From a virus, in the IMG/VR virus record IMGVR_UViG_3300035034_001216, positions 1-64,000 of that record: a stretch of 64,000 bases of DNA; one strand, written 5' to 3'. The number at the start of each line of letters is the position of its first letter. Within the stretch, counting starts at the first letter, position 1. The position numbers and the translations under genes are program-made. Below, in pieces: positions 56,253-64,000 of the stretch. The notes under the pieces were generated by a model. That model saw only the letters and a program-made list of their open reading frames with translations, was not told the DNA's origin and searched no databases.

Positions 56253-57816
56253 GTATCTTATTGTTTATTTTGTTTCTATGATTTAAAAATTGAGTAAATG
56301 ATAAATTTTCAGGATAAGTATTTTTTCTACCTATCATTGAAATTCTATTATTCATACGATCGTATAACTCATTGTCATAACTTTCAAGTATTATGTCTTT
56401 AACAGTAATCTTATCGGTTGTTAATATTTTGTATGATTTGTTTACTATAAACTTAACAAATGCTTTACAAAATAAAATCCAATCTTCTATTTCTTGATAA
56501 TCAAGACTAGCTTGATATGGTCTAAATTCAAGAGTAAGATATTTATAAGGATATTCTCCTTTTTTATTACTTACACGACCATTTCTCTGATTGAACGTAC
56601 AACTAATTAAATTTAACCATTTATATCTAAATTGTTGTGGAGTAATTTCACCTCTAAAAGGATCTTGATACCTACCACAATAACGATTTCCGGGATGTGG
56701 ATTCTTTTTATTTTGCAAAGAACCTACAAAGTTTCTATCGTATAGCATTTTATCATATAAATAAGAGTAAAAGAAATTGTCTGACATCTTTTTGTTATTA
56801 AACATCTTGTAAGATTTAACTCCTACATTATAATGTTCTTCAAGTAACAAACCACACATGTTATTATTACTCCTTGACTTGTGTAGAAAACCAAACAATT
56901 CATCTTGAATTTTATATCCAAGTATATATGCTAAATTTGTAAACCTTTTACTAAAAACAGTATTACCTACATGAACATGAATTCCACATGTATCATTAGT
57001 AATACATCTTTGGTTTACAACATCTAGTATGTTGTACAAATCATAAAATCCAGAGTCCTTATTTAAAATGCCAGTAACATATTCTCCACCAGTTATAGAT
57101 CCATCTCTTGAACATTCAACATCTACATTTCTTAGTTTAAATAAGTTTGAACTTATAGATCCCGCAGATGTTTCTATTTCTACTCCAAAAGTTAAATCGT
57201 CTTTTGATATTGAATTAAGATTACTCTCTTTTCTATTAAACTTAGAAACATTACACCTTAGATAATTTCCTTGAAGTGCTTGATCACGTTTAGCCCATTC
57301 TGATTTATATTCAGACATACTGACAATTCTTCCCGGTTCAGATAAAAGCTCTTTAAAACCAAACTTTTCAATTTGATCATGTCTCATTACTATTAATGAA
57401 TTTTTATGAGAAACTTTTATTAAAATACCCATTAATTCAGAAATATAAAATCGATCTTTATTACTGAACTTTTCATTTGAGTAATCATTTTTAAAACTAG
57501 CTTTTATATCATGAAATACTTCATTAATCAACATTTTATCTACAAGAGATACCTTTAAATTACTGGTATGAATTAATTGTTTATTCCCATCTTTGTCTAT
57601 GAACTTTAACAAGCTTAGCCTTTTTGTTTCTTGTTCTTTATCTGTAGCATGATCCATTGTGAACATGCCTTTTTTGTATAATTTATAACCTTCTGATGTT
57701 TTGATTATTCTTTTGTCATCCTTTTTATAAAACGTGCCTTTTATTCTCACATAATCATTGGGATTTTTAAGAATATCATTATTAATATCTAGGTTCCCTA
57801 TGTTGGCAACTTTCAT
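56218..57816 (-). CDS. Putative amidoligase (Amidoligase_2, glutamine-synthetase fold)
   Basis: TFGVEIET, DGSI..GEYVT.IL, CGIHVHV, RY.WLN, LEFR. Confidence 0.85.
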   Translation of the reverse strand: MKVANIGNLDINNDILKNPNDYVRIKGTFYKKDDKRIIKTSEGYKLYKKGMFTMDHATDKEQETKRLSLLKFIDKDGNKQLIHTSNLKVSLVDKMLINEVFHDIKASFKNDYSNEKFSNKDRFYISELMGILIKVSHKNSLIVMRHDQIEKFGFKELLSEPGRIVSMSEYKSEWAKRDQALQGNYLRCNVSKFNRKESNLNSISKDDLTFGVEIETSAGSISSNLFKLRNVDVECSRDGSITGGEYVTGILNKDSGFYDLYNILDVVNQRCITNDTCGIHVHVGNTVFSKRFTNLAYILGYKIQDELFGFLHKSRSNNNMCGLLLEEHYNVGVKSYKMFNNKKMSDNFFYSYLYDKMLYDRNFVGSLQNKKNPHPGNRYCGRYQDPFRGEITPQQFRYKWLNLISCTFNQRNGRVSNKKGEYPYKYLTLEFRPYQASLDYQEIEDWILFCKAFVKFIVNKSYKILTTDKITVKDIILESYDNELYDRMNNRISMIGRKNTYPENLSFTQFLNHRNKINNKIHVPNNIQEAIE

Positions 57817-59720
57817 ACTATTTCTTTTTTCTCTTTTATAGCGAGTAAGGATCGTTCATAAATTGTATTATTCCTTAGTCGCTGGTTATTAATAAAGTTT
57901 AACATTCGATTTAACTTTTCTGATGAAACTGTAGATAAAGAATCTGAAGCAATGTCACTAAGACCGTTTTCTAATTCTTTAAAAAAGCTCTTAAAAGATA
58001 TTCCACCAAATATAGCATCAAGACGTAACTGATGTTCCCAGATAGCATTATCTCTAAAACTATCTAATTCAAACTCATTGTCTAGATTTTCAGCAAAGTT
58101 TTCGTATTCCTCTGTAAGCTTTCTGACATATGCAACGTTTGTAAGCAAATCTTTAGCTGATACATTCATTGTAATATGACGATAATCCAGATGATAAGGA
58201 GTTACAAGAACTTTTCCTGAAGTAAACCTTTTTCTTATTGAACATTTTATGAATTTATCATCAATTAACAAGATACCAGTAGAAAGCTTAGTGGGTTTTA
58301 TTTCCTCACCTTCTTCTTGAAATAATTTTTCAAGTTCTTTTTGTCTTTTCTCCTTTACAAACGGAGATAAGCTTTGTGTAGATTTAAAAGGAATTAAACT
58401 TGTTTGTTTTTTACTAGTCAAATTGTTTTCAATTTCTTTACTAGCTTTTTCATCTAAGAATTTAATAAAACTAGGTGCTATAAATTCTTCAATCTTCAAG
58501 TCTTTACCGCATACACTTTTTATTTCTAATTCAGAAGATGCTTCGGAGATAGTCATTTTATGTTTACGTTCGAAATTCTTAGCAAACGTTTCATCTATTT
58601 TAATAAATATATGTAAATGACTATCTTTTTCATCACCAGTATGAAAATTTAAATATCCTACTAGAACATCTAATTTCTTATCTTGAAATGCAAAGAAATT
58701 GGTAAAATTAAACCTTCTATAATCACTTGTTAAGAAACCTATATGGTCACCGCCTTTTGATTGAGAGAATATAAAACTAACATTGTCTTGATAATTTTTA
58801 ACAAGTCGTTTATGTTCTTCAATCAATTTAAAAGGAATAAATAATTTACTACCTTTAAATTCAGTTTCAATATATTTTTCCCTCGTATTTATTGTTTTTA
58901 CCTCCCCGATTTCTTTTAGTGTAACGGATATTTCTTCCTCCAAGATCAACGCGTCCTGTACCGTCGTATTGTACTGTTTGCTTGTTTCGCTGGACGCGGG
59001 TGACTTTTTTGCTGGTTCAGGCTTTTTCCAAGGACTTCTTGTAATCTTCTGAAAAGAAAGTAATTCTCCATCTTTATAAGTATAAAGCTGATATTTATCA
59101 AGTTCTTTGATATTTTTACAACCTATTGACTGTAACGGATGACCTTCTGAAGAGAAATATAAACCTTCTTCTCGTTCTCCAACATGAAGAGGTCTTCCAT
59201 CATCATGATATACATGAAGAGTTCCATCTTTCTTAATAGCCATCATAGCTATAGCACCTTCATACACTTCAAGAACTTCTTTGAAATCCTCATTATTAAA
59301 TAGTTTGTATAAAAGTCTTGAATCAGATATATCTTTTCCTAAACTATTACGTTTTGGAATGTCAGTATTCTTTTCTGCAAACTTATCATACATATATTCA
59401 TGATTCAACAAAGTACCATTATGTACACCTGATATGTGTTCACCAATAAAAGGATGAGCATTAGCTATTGTATTTTGACCTACTGTTTTGGCTCTTGTAT
59501 GACCTATGAATATATTTCTGTCATCATGTATCTCTGGGTTATTTACGTTATATTGAAAACCTGATATAATGTCTTTATGCATAAAGAAATCGTTATCTTT
59601 TAAAGTTAAGATTCCTGTTGAATCATAACCTCTAGATACATTATATAGGCAAAGTAATTTTAATGCATTACTATTTGCTTGTTTGTCTTTTTTTCCTATG
59701 AAACCATAGATACCACACAT
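57813..59720 (-). CDS. Class II glutamine amidotransferase with long C-terminal extension
   Basis: MCGIYG, RGYDSTG, GHTRAKT, NAHPF, VHNGT, DS, RPL, FSSE. Confidence 0.88.
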   Translation of the reverse strand: MCGIYGFIGKKDKQANSNALKLLCLYNVSRGYDSTGILTLKDNDFFMHKDIISGFQYNVNNPEIHDDRNIFIGHTRAKTVGQNTIANAHPFIGEHISGVHNGTLLNHEYMYDKFAEKNTDIPKRNSLGKDISDSRLLYKLFNNEDFKEVLEVYEGAIAMMAIKKDGTLHVYHDDGRPLHVGEREEGLYFSSEGHPLQSIGCKNIKELDKYQLYTYKDGELLSFQKITRSPWKKPEPAKKSPASSETSKQYNTTVQDALILEEEISVTLKEIGEVKTINTREKYIETEFKGSKLFIPFKLIEEHKRLVKNYQDNVSFIFSQSKGGDHIGFLTSDYRRFNFTNFFAFQDKKLDVLVGYLNFHTGDEKDSHLHIFIKIDETFAKNFERKHKMTISEASSELEIKSVCGKDLKIEEFIAPSFIKFLDEKASKEIENNLTSKKQTSLIPFKSTQSLSPFVKEKRQKELEKLFQEEGEEIKPTKLSTGILLIDDKFIKCSIRKRFTSGKVLVTPYHLDYRHITMNVSAKDLLTNVAYVRKLTEEYENFAENLDNEFELDSFRDNAIWEHQLRLDAIFGGISFKSFFKELENGLSDIASDSLSTVSSEKLNRMLNFINNQRLRNNTIYERSLLAIKEKKEIV

Positions 59721-59738
59721 ATTATGTTATTTTAATTA

Positions 59739-60152
59739 TTAATAATACTTATTTTTGTAATCTGAAAAATCTCCTGTAGGTACTGCATCTCCTTGTATTC
59801 CATTATGGTTTAAGAAATACATCCATGCCTCTTCAACGTCGCCATGTTCACTATCATCGAGGACGATCTGTGTCATCTTACGAGTGTAAAAGTCTGGATG
59901 ACCTTCAAGACCGTCTAAAGGACCTAATAATGTTGATTCTTCTACTTCATATAGTTCTCCAACTATAGTAGAGTCATTACCATCATTCAATTCTTGACTT
60001 ACAAATGGAAAACCACCACTTCTCATATTAAAAGTGCCTACTGTTTTTCCTTTCCCCATAAATTTCAGGTTGGGGGCACCTGCTAAGCAAGCGTTATGAT
60101 TTCCATAACCCTTGCGAAGCGTACCGTATACAAATACTTTTTGTCTACTCAT
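59739..60152 (-). CDS. Gamma-glutamylcyclotransferase (GGCT/AIG2-like)
   Basis: VFVYGTLRKG, GELYEV, LDGLEGHP.FY.R, AWMY. Confidence 0.92.
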   Translation of the reverse strand: MSRQKVFVYGTLRKGYGNHNACLAGAPNLKFMGKGKTVGTFNMRSGGFPFVSQELNDGNDSTIVGELYEVEESTLLGPLDGLEGHPDFYTRKMTQIVLDDSEHGDVEEAWMYFLNHNGIQGDAVPTGDFSDYKNKYY

Positions 60153-60153
60153 A

Positions 60154-61116
60154 TTAAAGTTTACTGTTAATAATTTCTGGCATAGCTTCTACGTATGCCT
60201 TTAGTGTTCCATCACCAAATGAAGGTGATGAGTTAATTTCAACGATAAAGAATTTAGGATCTTTACGTTTGTTTCCTTTGTACATGCTACCTTGAACACG
60301 TACATCTACCGCACCAATATCAAGTCCTACCGCTTTAAGACTTTTCTTAGACTCGTTTACAATCTTATCCCAGTTTACAGGACGATCGAACGCAGGGTTA
60401 TCTTCTGTATACCATACACTATTACTATCATTACGATAGAAACGTTCATCTTCATGTGTATCAGATTTCAACATTTTTCTGTTGGTGTAAATTACACCAT
60501 TTTCAGAAACGTGAATTCTATACTCACGTAAATAGTTATGATACTTTTCAAACAAGTAACCACCAATCCCAATATTAGTATCTTTGATACCCATATCTTC
60601 ATGATCTTTGAATTGTTGGAAGTTGGTACAGAAAGTCTCAAGCTCATCTACTGTTTCAAATAAAACAATACCAAGACCTTTAGAACCTTTACGTACTTTA
60701 CCAATAAATGGTGCTCCAATCTCTTCTAGTTGTTTTTTGGAAAGAAGAGTATCTTTACCTCTAAGATCTGTACTAAGATTGTTAGGATTTGAAGCATTTA
60801 ACTTATGAAAAGTTCCATTTGTAATGTTAAATGTAAATGCTTCCGCAGTAATAACTTTATCTCTGTTGAAACAAGCTTTCATTCTAAACTTATCAGAAGC
60901 ATTATCTGTAGCCTGAACACTGTTAAGAATTAAACGTTTGTGACCATCAGTATATTGATATCTTGATCCAAACATTATGCTTACTCTTTGAGGAAAAGTA
61001 ATACCACTTTTCTTCATTGCATCTTGCAATTGTTTGTTTGAGTTTTTAGATCTTACAACTGGTGCAAATTCTCTATTTTTTCTTACTTTATTATGAATAC
61101 TTTTAAATCTAGTCAT
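60154..61116 (-). CDS. ATP-grasp ligase (phiEco32/RimK-like)
   Basis: NASDK, GSKGLGI, EYRIHV, RN, GLDIGAVDV, EINSSPS. Confidence 0.88.
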   Translation of the reverse strand: MTRFKSIHNKVRKNREFAPVVRSKNSNKQLQDAMKKSGITFPQRVSIMFGSRYQYTDGHKRLILNSVQATDNASDKFRMKACFNRDKVITAEAFTFNITNGTFHKLNASNPNNLSTDLRGKDTLLSKKQLEEIGAPFIGKVRKGSKGLGIVLFETVDELETFCTNFQQFKDHEDMGIKDTNIGIGGYLFEKYHNYLREYRIHVSENGVIYTNRKMLKSDTHEDERFYRNDSNSVWYTEDNPAFDRPVNWDKIVNESKKSLKAVGLDIGAVDVRVQGSMYKGNKRKDPKFFIVEINSSPSFGDGTLKAYVEAMPEIINSKL

Positions 61117-61128
61117 TTTGTTTATTTT

Positions 61129-61905
61129 TTAAGCGTTAATTTCTTGAACTTCTTGGATTGTTGTTTCTTCTTTAACTTGAGTTGTTTGAAAACTATCAAA
61201 TACGATCTTTTCGTATTTTTCTCCCAAGTATTTTTTATAATTGTTTACTACTTCTTGAACAATATCATATACTCTACCCATTTTTACAATATCTTTTAAC
61301 CAAAAGTTAGATAGAGATCTGTATTCAAATCCGTAGTCTTTAAATCTGAATCTTCCGGGTGTACCATAGATATCTTTTCTTGATTGGTTGTTATCTTCTC
61401 TAACTACCATATCTAAAAATAGATAATCCATTGCTTTAACCATATCTACCACCACATCCATATCTTCTGATAATTCGGGTGGTAGCCCTACATGGACATG
61501 CCCACCTGCGTATCTTACACCATCTTTGAATTCAATCTTAGGATTTTCATTCTTAGTGTAAGCTGATAAATCAGGATCACATCCTATTTCCCAGTCATGA
61601 TCTTCTTTTAAGTCTTCTTTCTCAAAAGTCATAGAAGGTACAACTGATAGAAAATCATCTCCAATAATATCTTGCAGCTTTGATTTTCCTACAAGAATAT
61701 TATTTATGAATCCTTTTTTACTAGTAGCAGGTGGTATATTCAATTCTAACATTACATTGTCAGCATGAACAGCATATCCATTTTTTAAATCTTCAACATC
61801 GTCTTTTGTTCCCGGTGTAAAATCTGCTGCTTTTTTTCCTTTCTGTGTATCTCTTCCTAAAATAAAAAATTCAGGATCAGTTCCTATTGTAAAGGATCTA
61901 TTCAT
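61129..61905 (-). CDS. phiEco32-like COOH-NH2 ligase type 2
   Basis: TIGTDPEFF, DNVMLELNIPP, IGCDPD, GGHVHVG, YGTPGRFRFKDYGFEYRSLSNFW. Confidence 0.9.
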   Translation of the reverse strand: MNRSFTIGTDPEFFILGRDTQKGKKAADFTPGTKDDVEDLKNGYAVHADNVMLELNIPPATSKKGFINNILVGKSKLQDIIGDDFLSVVPSMTFEKEDLKEDHDWEIGCDPDLSAYTKNENPKIEFKDGVRYAGGHVHVGLPPELSEDMDVVVDMVKAMDYLFLDMVVREDNNQSRKDIYGTPGRFRFKDYGFEYRSLSNFWLKDIVKMGRVYDIVQEVVNNYKKYLGEKYEKIVFDSFQTTQVKEETTIQEVQEINA

Positions 61906-61924: not shown

Positions 61925-62688
61925 TTATTTAATAGGGTTAACTATTTTTTCAACTTCATTGATATAATAATTATAATTGACATCATAATCTAAAAAATCA
62001 ACTTGTTGAAAAAATTTATTAAAATAAGTAACAAGATATTTACTTTCTACTTCAAAAGATCTGTCATCTACAAATACACCATCAAATAGCGTATTCTCAT
62101 ATACAGATTCTTTCCCTTCAAGAGGTGGCATTTTCTTTATTAGTTTTTTACCATGATTAGAAATATAATACCTTACTGTTTTACTAGCTTTCTCTACTGT
62201 TTTATCAGAACTTAAAACATCTTTTAAAATGTAATGAGATCCTTTATTAGATTTAACTGCTTTACAAAAGTCATATATGTCGTCACATTCATAAATAGTC
62301 TTTTTATAGTCTATATTATGAACGTAATAATCATATATTGCCTTTGCTACAATTATCATAGAATGATTCTTATGAGGCTCACGGTTATAATCATACCAAC
62401 CTTTAAGTTTCACTCTATCGTCTACTTTTTCATTTCCAGTTTTGATTGCTAGGTAATTATTTACATTACTCATAACAAGTAAGTCATAAAACGTTTCTTC
62501 TAAAACAAATTTCGTTTTATTTTCCCATTGTCTTTGTAATGATCTAAATTCATCTAACCTTTCTTTACTAAATAGTACAACTACACCATCAGTATTAGCA
62601 GATAAAACAGAAAATCCTGATATATCAAGATCTTCTATAAGCATTAACAATGATAATTGACCAATAGTGGTCGTTTGGATTGTTACTA
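61925..62688 (-). CDS. polB: Family B DNA polymerase, 3' exon (C-terminal palm and thumb)
   Basis: VTIQTTTIGQLSLLMLIE...SANTDG...VNNYLA...KLKG, RYYIS match crAss PolB; the frame continues upstream of the track's TTG to the predicted 3' splice site (62689/62688) and hits TAA just beyond it. Confidence 0.88.
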
Positions 62689-62721
62689 CTTACCACACTC
62701 AGTCACCTGAGCATAATAAAA

Positions 62722-63354
62722 TTACGTTAATTTATCAGCAACTGTTTCTCTGTTGAATATCCATATTTTAATGAAATTTCTACTGTTATTATTATAAGCA
62801 GGTTCTGTACATGTTTCGCACATTTCAGTAAGACATCCATCTAATATTGCCCATTCATTTGTCACACCTATCGGTTCATTTTTTGTACTTTGTCCGCCAG
62901 AAGTCATGTTGGTAGATACTAGAGTAAAAGCTGGACATTTTGTTAGTATCCTATCAAGAATCATATTTTGAAAAACCCATTTTATAAGTTTTTCTTCTAT
63001 AAATTCTTTGTTATACAAAACACCTTTAAGTTCAGAAATCATATTAGGTATTAATGTCGCAGATGAGTATTTTAAAGATGGATTATCTCGAGTCCCTTTC
63101 AAAAATGAAACTATTCTGCGAGATTCTCCATAAGCTGAGTTGATACCTGACATTTGGAGAGCACCACATGATATGTCAGTGCCTCCTACTCCTAAATGTT
63201 TATTGCCTGAGTAATTTATTAGTTCTTTAATACGAGATAAAACTTCAGGATTATCTTTTAATGTCTCAGGCGTTAGCTTTGAACTTTTTTTTTCTTCTAC
63301 TTTTAGTACTTTCAATTTGCTCATAATAAATTGTTTTTTTTGTTTTGATTTCAT
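62722..63354 (-). CDS. Intron passenger gene in the P9 region (hypothetical, no homing-endonuclease motif)
   Basis: ATG 63354 (or 63324) after an A-rich leader; SCGALQMSG...NNNSRNFIKIW; no HNH, GIY-YIG or LAGLIDADG signature seen. Confidence 0.75.
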   Translation of the reverse strand: MKSKQKKQFIMSKLKVLKVEEKKSSKLTPETLKDNPEVLSRIKELINYSGNKHLGVGGTDISCGALQMSGINSAYGESRRIVSFLKGTRDNPSLKYSSATLIPNMISELKGVLYNKEFIEEKLIKWVFQNMILDRILTKCPAFTLVSTNMTSGGQSTKNEPIGVTNEWAILDGCLTEMCETCTEPAYNNNSRNFIKIWIFNRETVADKLT

Positions 63355-63385
63355 AATTTTATTATTTGTAGTCTGGACCATCTCA

Positions 63386-63697
63386 TCAACCGCATTCAAT
63401 GTCACATGTAGGACTATTAAGTCCACATTTACATTTAATTTTAGGTTGCTCGTTGTTGGCCTCTACGCCGTTTTCTAATTTTTCACATAAACTAATAACT
63501 TCTTCATCATCACCATAAGCGCATAATGCTTCTAAAATTAATTTAATGTCTTTATTATCAAGTGACGGCACGGGATTGTCAAATTTTTTAAGTACTATTT
63601 TACAAAAGTCTACTTCAAATTGCTTTTGGAGATCTTCTTGAACTGCTTTTATATAATCAGGATTTTCATCTGATTGAAATTGTACTATAATTTTCAT
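63386..63697 (-). CDS. Intron passenger ORF overlapping the ribozyme core (hypothetical, 103 aa)
   Basis: ATG after an A-rich leader in L5; open through P5', P4', P6, P7, P3' and P8; TGA at the P8'/J8-7 junction. Confidence 0.55.
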   Translation of the reverse strand: MKIIVQFQSDENPDYIKAVQEDLQKQFEVDFCKIVLKKFDNPVPSLDNKDIKLILEALCAYGDDEEVISLCEKLENGVEANNEQPKIKCKCGLNSPTCDIECG

Positions 63698-63723
63698 ATT
63701 TTTTTTAAATTTGAGTTTCCCCG

Positions 63724-63896
63724 TTAGCTAATATTAAATTCTGTTAAATATTTACATTCTGATTTTTTACCACCACATTTAATTATCTCATATCTTTTTG
63801 ATAATTTACAATTACATGATGGTGGTCCACAATGTGAACCGGGTATATAACTTCCATTACCACACCCATCATCATAATGTTTACATTTTTTTTCAT
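63724..63896 (-). CDS. Cys-rich intron passenger ORF in a P3.2-like loop (needs A9 rather than A8 after the ATG)
   Basis: ATG-A8, then frame CKHYDDGCGNGSYIPGSHCGPPSCNCKLSKRYEIIKCGGKKSECKYLTEFNIS* with TAA at 63726-63724; as written the ATG frame gives only 37 aa. Confidence 0.45.
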
Positions 63897-64000
63897 AATT
63901 TTAATATTAACCCCTCTTTCGAGGATTCCGAGTTATTCGAAGTACATTACTGTACTAAGCCGCTAGTTTGACTTTATTATTAAATCGTTTTAAGAATATT

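What the first reader, a model, noticed from the sequence alone, without database searches (positions are those of the whole stretch)
62689..64000. Group I intron in polB whose ribozyme core is dispersed among several non-endonuclease passenger genes
Seen: the polB C-terminal frame has no start of its own and is preceded by an in-frame TAA. Upstream on the - strand, the IGS and helices P2-P10 of a group I intron pair in the right order over ~1.3 kb: P2 63956-63941 (GUAA loop); P3 CUCG 63932-63929/CGAG 63452-63449; P4 63724-63719/63575-63570 with AAAC/CAA internal loop (compare T4 td AACGGGGAA and GACAAUCCCGUG); P5 63714-63707/63586-63579; P6 63569-63565/63471-63467; P7 G-A(bulge)-GGCCA 63463-63457/UGGUCC 63380-63375; P8 63448-63444/63391-63387; P9 GUGA hairpin 62712-62697; ACUAC/GUGGU closing stem; terminal G 62689. 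Established: phage group I introns typically carry none or one ORF, a homing endonuclease in one peripheral loop. Here there are at least three reading frames at three positions (P3.2-like loop, L5 through P8, P9) plus a probable fourth in L1, and the three seen in full have no endonuclease motif. Inference: this is an intron acting as a multi-gene carrier, an operon nested within a ribozyme nested within the replicative polymerase gene. I do not know of a described phage example, but cannot exclude one without a search.
Basis: partly seen in the sequence, partly recalled or inferred. Interest (0 to 1): 0.95.

Follow-up and report, generated by a model that had tools for sequence, protein, structure and literature searches.

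The report
Multi-gene group I intron in polB
A phage DNA polymerase gene is interrupted by a 2.5-kb self-splicing-type (group I) intron whose RNA core is cut into short islands by four or five protein genes of unknown function, an unusual layout that recurs in the helicase gene of related phages.

Summary
The window is bases 1-64000 of a 72,521-base virus record. In the extra 8.5 kb I found the missing 5' exon of the family-B polymerase. It ends in the four bases that the internal guide sequence requires.

The intervening sequence is 2,522 nt (65210..62689, minus strand), not about 1.3 kb. Removing it restores a 630-residue polymerase with no gap against the family profile.

In a relative (L086, 76% identical C-part) the ORFs have diverged strongly.

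Rfam does not score this copy. It does score a compact relative of the same core (L095, 68.8 bits). A sequence profile built from seven such cores hits this record once, at P8'-P7'-P9 (E 7e-6).

The same intron family, with homologues of the same ORFs, splits the helicase gene of Cellulophaga phage phi14:2 and of IMG/VR contigs, where it is not annotated.

No ORF matches a known homing-endonuclease family. Their function remains unknown, and they look like a conserved intron-associated module rather than random cargo. Splicing itself is untested.

This is a new variant of a known kind; interest 0.7.

The parts
61925..62688 (-). polB exon 2 (C-terminal 254 codons, carries polymerase motif C). 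Exon 1 lies outside the window at record 66339..65211.
   Evidence: It matches phrog_1252 positions 427-651, and exon 1 matches positions 52-425. It aligns with intact polymerases. The spliced product is 630 aa with no internal stop.
62689..64000 (-). The 3' 1,312 nt of the intron. The whole intron is record 65210..62689 (2,522 nt). The terminal G is at 62689 and the 5' splice site follows the U at 65211.
63960..63967 (-). Internal guide sequence. 63963-63960 pair with the last four bases of exon 1 (65214-65211, U.G at the splice site). 63967-63964 pair with the first four bases of exon 2 (62688-62685, P10).
Evidence: It is identical in L086.
63941..63956 (-). P2 hairpin, 6 bp with a GNRA loop.
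   Evidence: Against L086 there are 3 double compensatory and 2 one-sided changes, and the loop is kept.
63929..63932 (-). P3 5' strand (partner 63452-63449).
   Evidence: It is 4 bp and invariant in L086.
63727..63925 (-). Insertion between P3 and P4, absent from L086. It holds a short GNRA hairpin, then a 12-bp stem (63911-63900 / 63738-63727) that encloses a small Cys-rich frame. That frame is out of register with its ATG by one base in an A8 run.
   Evidence: The coding status is doubtful.
63707..63724 (-). P4 5' strand (63724-63719), J4/5, and P5 5' strand (63714-63707).
   Evidence: P4 is invariant in three phages. P5 occurs in three different sequences that all pair.
63565..63586 (-). 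P5 3' strand (63586-63579), J5/4, P4 3' strand (63575-63570), and P6 5' strand (63569-63565).
   Evidence: It is a conserved island inside ORF-D.
63440..63471 (-). P6 3' strand (63471-63467), J6/7, P7 5' strand with a bulge (63463-63457), P3 3' strand (63452-63449), and P8 5' strand (63448-63444).
63368..63391 (-). P8 3' strand (63391-63387), J8/7, P7 3' strand (63380-63375), and P9 5' strand (63372-63368).
   Evidence: It is the only hit in the record (63394-63348, E 7e-6) to a profile built from 7 related cores.
63386..63697 (-). ORF-D, 103 aa. It starts in L5 and reads through P5', P4', P6, P7, P3' and P8, and ends in a Cys-rich tail.
   Evidence: The frame is kept open in L086 and in phi14:2 g027. 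The spacing between the islands differs by multiples of three.
62722..63354 (-). ORF-E, 210 aa from the ATG at 63354, in the P9 loop. It belongs to a rare family with a conserved Ser-Cys-Gly motif and an Asn-rich C-terminal motif.
62692..62724 (-). P9a 3' strand (62724-62713; partner 63365-63354, 12 bp, closes the ORF-E loop), P9b hairpin (62712-62697, GNRA loop), and P9 3' strand (62696-62692).
   Evidence: P9a has 2 double compensatory changes against L086.
63980..64000 (-). Last 21 nt of ORF-B (262 aa, record 64768..63980). ORF-A (147 aa, record 65198..64755) lies upstream. Both sit in loop L1, between the 5' splice site and the guide sequence.

Best explanation
Record positions 65210..62689 (minus strand) are one 2,522-nt group I intron. 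It interrupts the family-B DNA polymerase gene between motifs B and C.

How it works:
- The guide sequence at 63967-63960 pairs with the last bases of exon 1, placing a U.G pair at the splice site after 65211. It also pairs with the first four bases of exon 2.
- Guanosine-initiated transesterification followed by exon ligation after the terminal G at 62689 would give a continuous 630-residue polymerase.

Layout of the ribozyme core:
- The core is cut into about six short islands. Long-range stems (P1, P5, P6, P8, P9, P9a, and a 12-bp stem in the P3-P4 junction) each close a protein-coding insertion and so bring the islands together.
- ORF-A and ORF-B lie in L1. A doubtful mini-ORF lies between P3 and P4. 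ORF-D starts in L5 and is read straight through the catalytic helices. ORF-E lies in P9.

The intron belongs to a family that also splits the helicase gene of other Bacteroidota-type phages. There it carries homologues of the same ORFs.

Shown: the pairings, their conservation and covariation, restoration of the reading frame, and kinship to a compact copy that Rfam scores as a group I intron.

Inferred: catalysis in vivo, the interplay of translation and folding, and what the ORFs do. My guess is that ORF-E, perhaps with ORF-A, serves intron mobility or maintenance.
For: (1) The polymerase is split cleanly. The N part matches phrog_1252 positions 52-425 and the C part positions 427-651. Of 80 distant IMG/VR polB loci, 75 read straight through this site.

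(2) Exon 1 ends with the four bases that the guide sequence needs, and P10 has 4 bp. In-silico splicing gives 630 aa here and 634 aa in L086, with no internal stop.

(3) The C part has no start codon at the homology boundary.

(4) L086 has the same architecture. Its exons are about 80% identical in DNA and the ORF-B/E regions about 30-55%, yet the islands are 80-97% identical.

(5) Of 75 pair positions compared with L086, 59 are unchanged, 4 changed on one side, 10 changed on both sides with pairing kept (P2 x3, P5 x5, P9a x2), and 2 are broken (outer P8). In register, 148 of 150 cells pair, against 47-61 of 150 when slid.

(6) Phage phi14:2 adds two double changes in P7, one in P8, and a third version of P5.

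(7) Rfam RF00028 scores a compact relative of the core, directly upstream of an ORF-E homologue in L095, at 68.8 bits, E 5e-15. An nhmmer profile of 7 such cores hits this record only at 63394-63348, E 7e-6.

(8) The same family is bounded by U| and G| in the helicase gene of L092 (2,466 nt) and of phi14:2 (2,616 nt). Removing it restores helicases colinear with the intact L097 helicase. The P10 guide differs between the two in step with the start of exon 2.
Against: - Rfam finds no group I match in this copy or in L086, either at gathering score or at E<=10. This includes a 113-nt piece holding P7-P3'-P8-P7'.
- P3 has only 4 bp. The core helices P3, P4, P7 and P9 are invariant between the two closest copies, so they carry no covariation of their own there.
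- A P1 that closes a 1.24-kb loop is unusual. In the helicase copies the guide sits right next to the splice site instead.
- In L086 the C part begins with an in-frame ATG, so separate translation cannot be excluded there.
- Comparative support rests on essentially one close relative (L087 repeats L086) plus one distant one.
- No RNA evidence of splicing exists.
Confidence: 0.85

Rival explanations
1. The polymerase is made as two separate polypeptides that assemble, as in split polymerase genes. The intron-like RNA is then a dead relic or serves another role, such as regulating the inserted genes.
For: The N part ends in its own stop 5 codons after the junction. In L086 and in 3 of 7 close C-part proteins (P0002, P0004, P0005) the C part starts with Met at the junction. 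Ninety-seven C-part-sized proteins exist in the protein collection.
Against: In this record the junction codon is not a start codon, and the first start lies 13 codons inside conserved sequence. The Met at that position is also the residue found in an intact polymerase (Sasha). So a Met there is expected anyway, and gene callers would pick it. The guide sequence, P10 and the core islands are kept nearly invariant while the ORFs diverged strongly. Pairing is kept through 10 double changes. That points to selection on the RNA.
Confidence: 0.07
2. The 2.5 kb is not one intron but a composite. It could be a smaller intron plus an adjacent or nested mobile cassette (ORF-A/ORF-B, or the P3-P4 insertion) with its own excision or none. 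It could also be a twintron.
For: ORF-A-like and ORF-E-like genes also stand outside any ribozyme, next to an intact helicase, in L097. ORF-A homologues stand free near polB in L037 and L038. L095 carries a second Rfam-scored group I core with a GIY-YIG ORF just upstream. The P3-P4 insertion is absent from L086.
Against: Only one region of the record matches the core profile. Rfam finds no second core in the 2.9 kb. The only bases that pair with the guide sequence in the right phase lie at the polB junction, 1.24 kb upstream, and they are identical in L086. The reading frame is restored only if the whole 2,522 nt is removed.
Confidence: 0.07
3. The pairings are chance matches in AT-rich DNA, and the conserved islands reflect protein constraint on ORF-D.
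For: The intron is 71% A+U, so short stems are cheap. Three of the islands lie inside ORF-D and translate to conserved peptides.
Against: The slide control gives 148/150 against 47-61/150. Islands outside any ORF are equally conserved: the guide sequence, the P3 5' strand, the P4 5' strand, P8'-P7'-P9 and the 3' end. Synonymous positions within the islands are invariant while neighbouring codons diverge. The compact relatives keep the same core with no ORF through it, and one of them is scored by Rfam.
Confidence: 0.01

Closest known systems
Phage group I introns with one homing-endonuclease ORF in a peripheral loop (T4 td, nrdB and sunY; the SPO1 and Bastille DNA polymerase introns). The names are recalled. 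The general picture comes from passages of Hausner et al. 2014, PMC3984707.
   Same: It is a self-splicing-type intron in a conserved replication gene of a phage. It has a U.G pair at the 5' splice site, a terminal G, P1-P10 in canonical order, and an ORF in a P9 loop.
   Different: Here there are four or five ORFs at four or five positions. None matches GIY-YIG, HNH, LAGLIDADG, PD-(D/E)xK or EDxHD models. The core is dispersed over 1.3 kb, and P1 spans 1.24 kb.
Group I introns whose ORF extends into core sequences (Hausner et al. 2014, legend of Fig. 2b, seen as a passage).
   Same: ORF-D overlaps ribozyme core helices, so those bases serve as both codons and structure.
   Different: ORF-D reads through most of the catalytic core (P5' to P8) rather than an edge. 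It is not a recognisable endonuclease. It is kept in three diverged copies.
Group I introns of crAss-like phages in PolB, MCP, primase and other core genes (Yutin et al. 2021, PMC7886860, passages).
   Same: These are introns in the core replication genes of Bacteroidota phages. One member of the present family lies in Cellulophaga phage phi14:2, a member of the Crassvirales.
   Different: Those introns were found by their endonuclease domains (stated in the passage), so a family without such a domain would be missed. The phi14:2 helicase intron is not annotated in NC_021806.1. Supplementary files of that paper could not be read and may bear on this.
Typical GIY-YIG insertions in the same polymerase family (L046, L049, L069, L079, L081).
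   Same: The same polB family is involved, and the insertions lie in or next to catalytic motifs.
   Different: Those are about 1-kb insertions at motifs A and B, each with a single GIY-YIG ORF. The present intron sits about 17 codons downstream of motif B and has no such ORF.
Mitochondrial group I introns with two ORFs or with a host gene inside (for example rps3 in the rnl intron). Recalled, not checked here.
   Same: A group I intron that carries more than a single endonuclease gene.
   Different: Those are organellar, with one or two ORFs. No phage case with four or more ORFs appeared in my searches (listings only).

Membership tests
Group I intron | P1 formed by the exon-1 end and an internal guide sequence, with a U.G pair at the 5' splice site | tested here: met
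   65214-65209 pairs with 63965-60 over 6 bp including the U.G pair. It is identical in L086.
Group I intron | Terminal G at the 3' end, with P10 between the guide and exon 2 | tested here: met
   The G is at 62689. P10 is 63967-64 with 62688-85, 4 bp. In the helicase copies the P10 guide changes together with exon 2.
Group I intron | Core helices P3-P9 in canonical order, with the P3/P7 pseudoknot and a bulged P7 | tested here: met
   All helices pair by coordinates. Covariation is seen in P2, P5 and P9a against L086, and in P7, P8 and P5 against phi14:2. P3 is only 4 bp.
Group I intron | Match to the Rfam covariance model RF00028 | tested here: not met
   No hit in this copy or in L086. A compact homologous core in L095 scores 68.8 bits. 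A test with the ORF loops removed could not be run with these tools.
Group I intron | Guanosine-dependent self-splicing | not testable with these tools
Homing-endonuclease-bearing mobile intron | An ORF of a known homing-endonuclease family | tested here: not met
   Pfam, PHROGs, NCBIfam and PDB sequence searches of ORFs A, B, D and E gave no nuclease family. The fold models were too poor to search.
Homing-endonuclease-bearing mobile intron | Presence/absence polymorphism at the same site among relatives | tested here: inconclusive
   75 of 80 distant polB loci lack any insertion at the site. No intron-less allele appeared among near-identical contigs. Close relatives other than L086/L087 could not be fetched.
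Split (two-gene) family-B polymerase | The C-terminal part has its own start codon at the split | tested here: not met
   No ATG, GTG or TTG lies at the boundary in this record. The first is 13 codons in. L086 does have an ATG there.
Intein | An insertion in frame with the host protein and free of stops | tested here: not met
   A stop lies 5 codons after the junction, and the insertion has several frames and stops.

The most novel reading that the evidence does not exclude
The element represents a so-far undescribed class of composite phage introns. In it, a group I ribozyme has become the vehicle of a conserved gene module: ORF-A-like, ORF-B-like and ORF-E-like proteins, plus a small zinc-knuckle protein encoded through the catalytic core. 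The module moves as a unit between replication genes (polB here, the helicase Walker A codons in phi14:2 and in IMG/VR phages). It also exists without a ribozyme next to an intact helicase. ORF-E, alone or with ORF-A, would then be a new kind of homing or maintenance enzyme, and ORF-D a case of sustained dual coding of protein and ribozyme core.
Probability: 0.35. Interest if true: 0.85.

Novelty: new variant of a known kind. Interest (0 to 1): 0.7.

Why it matters
Phage group I introns are textbook examples of a minimal selfish element: one ribozyme and at most one endonuclease gene. This copy shows that the ribozyme can tolerate being cut into about six islands by 2 kb of coding sequence. 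It can have its catalytic helices translated as part of a protein. It can also carry a conserved set of genes that no homing-endonuclease model recognises.

This has three consequences:
- Searches that find introns by endonuclease domains or by Rfam will miss such elements. Replication genes in Bacteroidota phages are then annotated as fragments; the helicase of the cultured phage phi14:2 is an example.
- It offers a tractable system for asking how translation and ribozyme folding coexist on the same bases.
- It points to a candidate new family of intron-associated proteins.

One member sits in a cultured phage with a cultured host, so splicing and ORF function can be tested directly.

Tried and rejected
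- Rfam on the window, on the 2.9-kb region, on L086 and on a 113-nt core piece gave no group I match. Rfam also gave none on five distant polB loci with GIY-YIG insertions. I therefore treat its silence on ORF-laden phage introns as uninformative.
- RNA evidence: no RNA holder is listed for the stretch. Contigs of four lake-water DNA runs laid on the stretch showed no joint and no differences, and parts were without cover. This says nothing either way.
- The search for related loci with the C part alone and with ORF-A found nothing in viral contigs. A 23-nt core pattern had no exact match there. blastn against cultured phages gave only short matches, one of which led to phi14:2.
- The search for homologous proteins with ORF-B found only itself.
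- AlphaFold models of ORF-B and ORF-E, built from 2-sequence alignments, had mean pLDDT of 39.8 and 47.4. They were too poor, so no fold search was run.
- The ESM Atlas gave only low-confidence leads: an iron-regulator-like winged-helix resemblance for ORF-A at TM 0.46-0.48, and unreliable portal-like hits for ORF-E.
- hhalign of phi14:2 g025 and g026 and of the L092 L5 ORF against ORF-B was not significant (E 0.03-0.07). Kinship of those ORFs to ORF-B is therefore only a lead.
- Group II intron and intein readings were rejected by inspection: there is no reverse transcriptase, and the insertion contains stops.
- Literature: searches (listings) and passages of PMC3984707 and PMC7886860 showed no description of a phage group I intron with four or more ORFs or of this family. 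Supplements were closed.
Full report
**Where the window lies.** The window is bases 1-64000 of a 72,521-base IMG/VR virus record. I fetched the remaining 8.5 kb as L002, where L002 coordinate + 60000 equals the record and window numbering. All features discussed are on the minus strand.

**The polymerase is split, and both halves are present.**
- A 384-codon ORF at 66339..65185, outside the window, matches positions 52-425 of the same profile.
- Aligned with intact polymerases of Maribacter phage Panino, Flavobacterium phage FpV4 and Salmonella phage Sasha, the two pieces abut between motifs B and C.
- The C piece is preceded by an in-frame stop. It has no start codon until 13 codons into conserved sequence.
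- Of 80 distant polB loci from IMG/VR, 75 read straight through this site and 2 are cut by a contig end. The other 3 carry a roughly 1.1-kb insertion with a GIY-YIG ORF about 17 codons upstream. Two further loci have such an insertion at motif A.

**The intervening sequence.**
- It holds same-strand ORFs A (147 aa, 65198..64755), B (262 aa, 64768..63980), D (103 aa, 63697..63386) and E (210 aa, 63354..62722).
- It also holds a small Cys-rich frame at about 63896..63724 that is open from its ATG only if an A8 run is read as A9.

- Read by coordinates, every helix pairs as described.
- The guide sequence at 63967-63960 pairs with the last four bases of exon 1, with a U.G pair at the splice site after 65211. 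It also pairs with the first four bases of exon 2.
- An earlier first-stage note (e1-6171519) had predicted the end of the unseen exon from the guide sequence alone. The exon I fetched ends exactly so.
- Joining 65211 to 62688 in silico gives a 630-residue polymerase with no internal stop and no gap against the family profile.

**Comparative evidence.**
- One metagenome scan found L086, a 41,964-nt contig with a C part 76% identical in protein. It also found L087, a shorter contig with the same proteins, which is not independent.
- L086 has the same layout: polB-N, ORF-A (52% identical), ORF-B (29%), ORF-D, ORF-E (28%), polB-C.
- In a DNA alignment the exons are mostly 63-97% identical per 30-column window. 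The ORF-B and ORF-E regions are mostly 30-55% identical. Short islands at 63586-63571, 63478-63451, 63400-63372 and 62733-62688 reach 80-97%.
- The guide sequence, the P3 5' strand and the P4 5' strand are identical as well.
- Of 75 proposed pair positions, 59 are unchanged, 4 changed on one side, 10 changed on both sides with pairing kept (P2 three, P5 five, and the 12-bp stem P9a that closes the ORF-E loop two), and 2 are broken in the outer part of P8.
- In register, 148 of 150 cells pair. With the 3' partner slid by 1-3 bases, 47-61 of 150 pair.
- The registers of P5 and P9a are fixed by invariant flanks, and that of P2 by its conserved GNRA loop, so I had little freedom in choosing them.

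**Link to certified group I introns.**
- Rfam gives no hit on this copy or on L086.
- A profile search with ORF-E found 14 representatives among 1.84 billion proteins. A narrower alignment of six of them (A9) brought in 24 IMG/VR loci.
- In 7 of these 24 (L090-L096), a compact core with the same P4, J4/5, P5, J5/4, J8/7, P7' and P9 sequences lies directly upstream of the ORF-E homologue.
- Rfam RF00028 scores the L095 copy at 68.8 bits, E 5e-15.
- An nhmmer profile built from those seven cores, none of them from this record, hits the 72.5-kb record once. The hit is at 63394-63348 on the minus strand (E 7e-6). The profile also hits the corresponding places of L086 and phi14:2.

**The same family in another gene.**
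- A short blastn match led to Cellulophaga phage phi14:2 (Crassvirales).
- There, g027 is an ORF-D homologue read through the same core islands, and g028 is an ORF-E homologue.
- Its P7 differs from ours by two double compensatory changes and its P8 by one. Its P5 is a third sequence that still pairs.
- The host gene is the replicative helicase. g024 is the helicase N-terminus, 65% identical to residues 7-61 of the intact L097 helicase.
- Removing L089 4151-6766 (NC_021806.1 13150-15765, 2,616 nt, bounded by a U before it and a G at its end) restores a 369-residue helicase. That helicase is colinear with the L097 one.
- The same holds for L092 (2162-4627, 2,466 nt), which carries an ORF-A-like gene, an ORF in L5, the core, an ORF-E homologue and a second ORF-A-like gene.
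- In both helicase copies the guide sequence lies just after the 5' splice site. Its P10 part differs between the two in step with the first bases of exon 2.
- The RefSeq record annotates g024 and g025-g028 as hypothetical proteins and g029 as a 280-residue DnaB, with no join.

**What the ORFs are.**
- None matches any family in Pfam, NCBIfam or PDB sequences at useful significance. PHROGs gives only a weak match of ORF-D to a family of unknown function.
- Five of 15 ORF-E family members carry DUF6501 at the N-terminus.
- The ORF-E family has an invariant Ser-Cys-Gly motif and an Asn-rich C-terminal motif, with no invariant acidic or histidine residue. It therefore does not look like a metal-dependent nuclease, but this is no proof.
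- ORF-D appears to be a real gene. Three diverged copies keep the frame open. The variable spacers between the islands differ by multiples of three (114, 129 and 123 nt). The non-conserved tail keeps paired cysteines. The compact relatives have stops in that frame, so ORF-D is an addition of this subfamily (my reading).
- ORF-A homologues stand free near polB in L037 and L038.
- In L097 an A-like, E-like, A-like trio sits next to an intact helicase with no room for a ribozyme.
- The module therefore exists both inside and outside introns. This pattern fits homing-type selfish genes, and it fits ordinary accessory genes that were captured.

**Assessment.**
- The structure is a group I intron with high probability (0.85 for one active intron).
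- The main residual doubts are the absence of RNA data, the weak 4-bp P3, the unusual 1.24-kb P1 loop, and the small number of independent relatives.
- What is new is not an intron in a phage polymerase, which is well known (passages of PMC3984707 and PMC7886860). Nor is it an ORF overlapping core sequence (legend of Fig. 2b of PMC3984707).
- What is new is the combination: four or five ORFs at four or five positions, none of a known endonuclease family; a protein read through most of the catalytic core; and a family that recurs with the same genes in a second replication gene.
- I found no description of this in three literature searches.

Noticed in passing
L089 4151-6766 (NC_021806.1 13150-15765): The replicative helicase of the cultured Cellulophaga phage phi14:2 is split at its Walker A codons by a 2,616-nt intron of the same family, holding g025-g028. 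The RefSeq record lists g024 as hypothetical and g029 as a short DnaB, with no join.
   Followed up: yes
L092 2162-4627: An IMG/VR phage contig has its helicase gene interrupted by a 2,466-nt member of the family with four ORFs. The guide sequence for P1 and P10 lies immediately after the 5' splice site.
   Followed up: yes
L095 894-1820 and 2339-2555: Two Rfam-scored group I cores (88.5 and 68.8 bits) lie within 1 kb of each other, between the helicase fragments. The first has a GIY-YIG ORF. How the two are arranged (tandem or nested) was not worked out.
   Followed up: partly
L097 3555-6223: An ORF-A-like, ORF-E-like, ORF-A-like gene trio stands directly upstream of an intact 369-aa helicase with no ribozyme between the genes. 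The intron's gene module therefore also exists outside introns.
   Followed up: partly
L046 4933-5685; L081 451-1302; L069 88-939; L049 2728-3432; L079 4946-5722: Distant members of the same polB family carry roughly 1-kb insertions with GIY-YIG ORFs at motif B (first three) or motif A (last two). Rfam gives no group I hit on them at gathering score.
   Followed up: partly
L089 637-3082: The polB of phi14:2 itself is annotated as a two-piece join. Its roughly 470-nt insertion lies near motif A, a different site from the intron studied here.
   Followed up: partly
window 57813-61905 (minus strand): Directly downstream of polB lie a phiEco32-like COOH-NH2 ligase (61129-61905, PF14395), a 320-aa ORF, a 137-aa ORF and a class-II glutamine amidotransferase fusion (57813-59720). 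Together they look like an amidoligase-type modification cluster. L086 and L087 keep the same neighbours.
   Followed up: no
window 63886-63893: An A8 run separates an ATG from a 7-Cys reading frame inside the P3-P4 insertion. Whether this is a sequencing error, programmed slippage or a dead gene is open. L086 lacks the insertion and instead has a Cys-rich N-terminus on its ORF-D.
   Followed up: partly
L049 827-1300: A phage-borne tmRNA gene (Rfam 70.9 bits) followed by a tRNA lies upstream of the polB of an unrelated IMG/VR contig.
   Followed up: no
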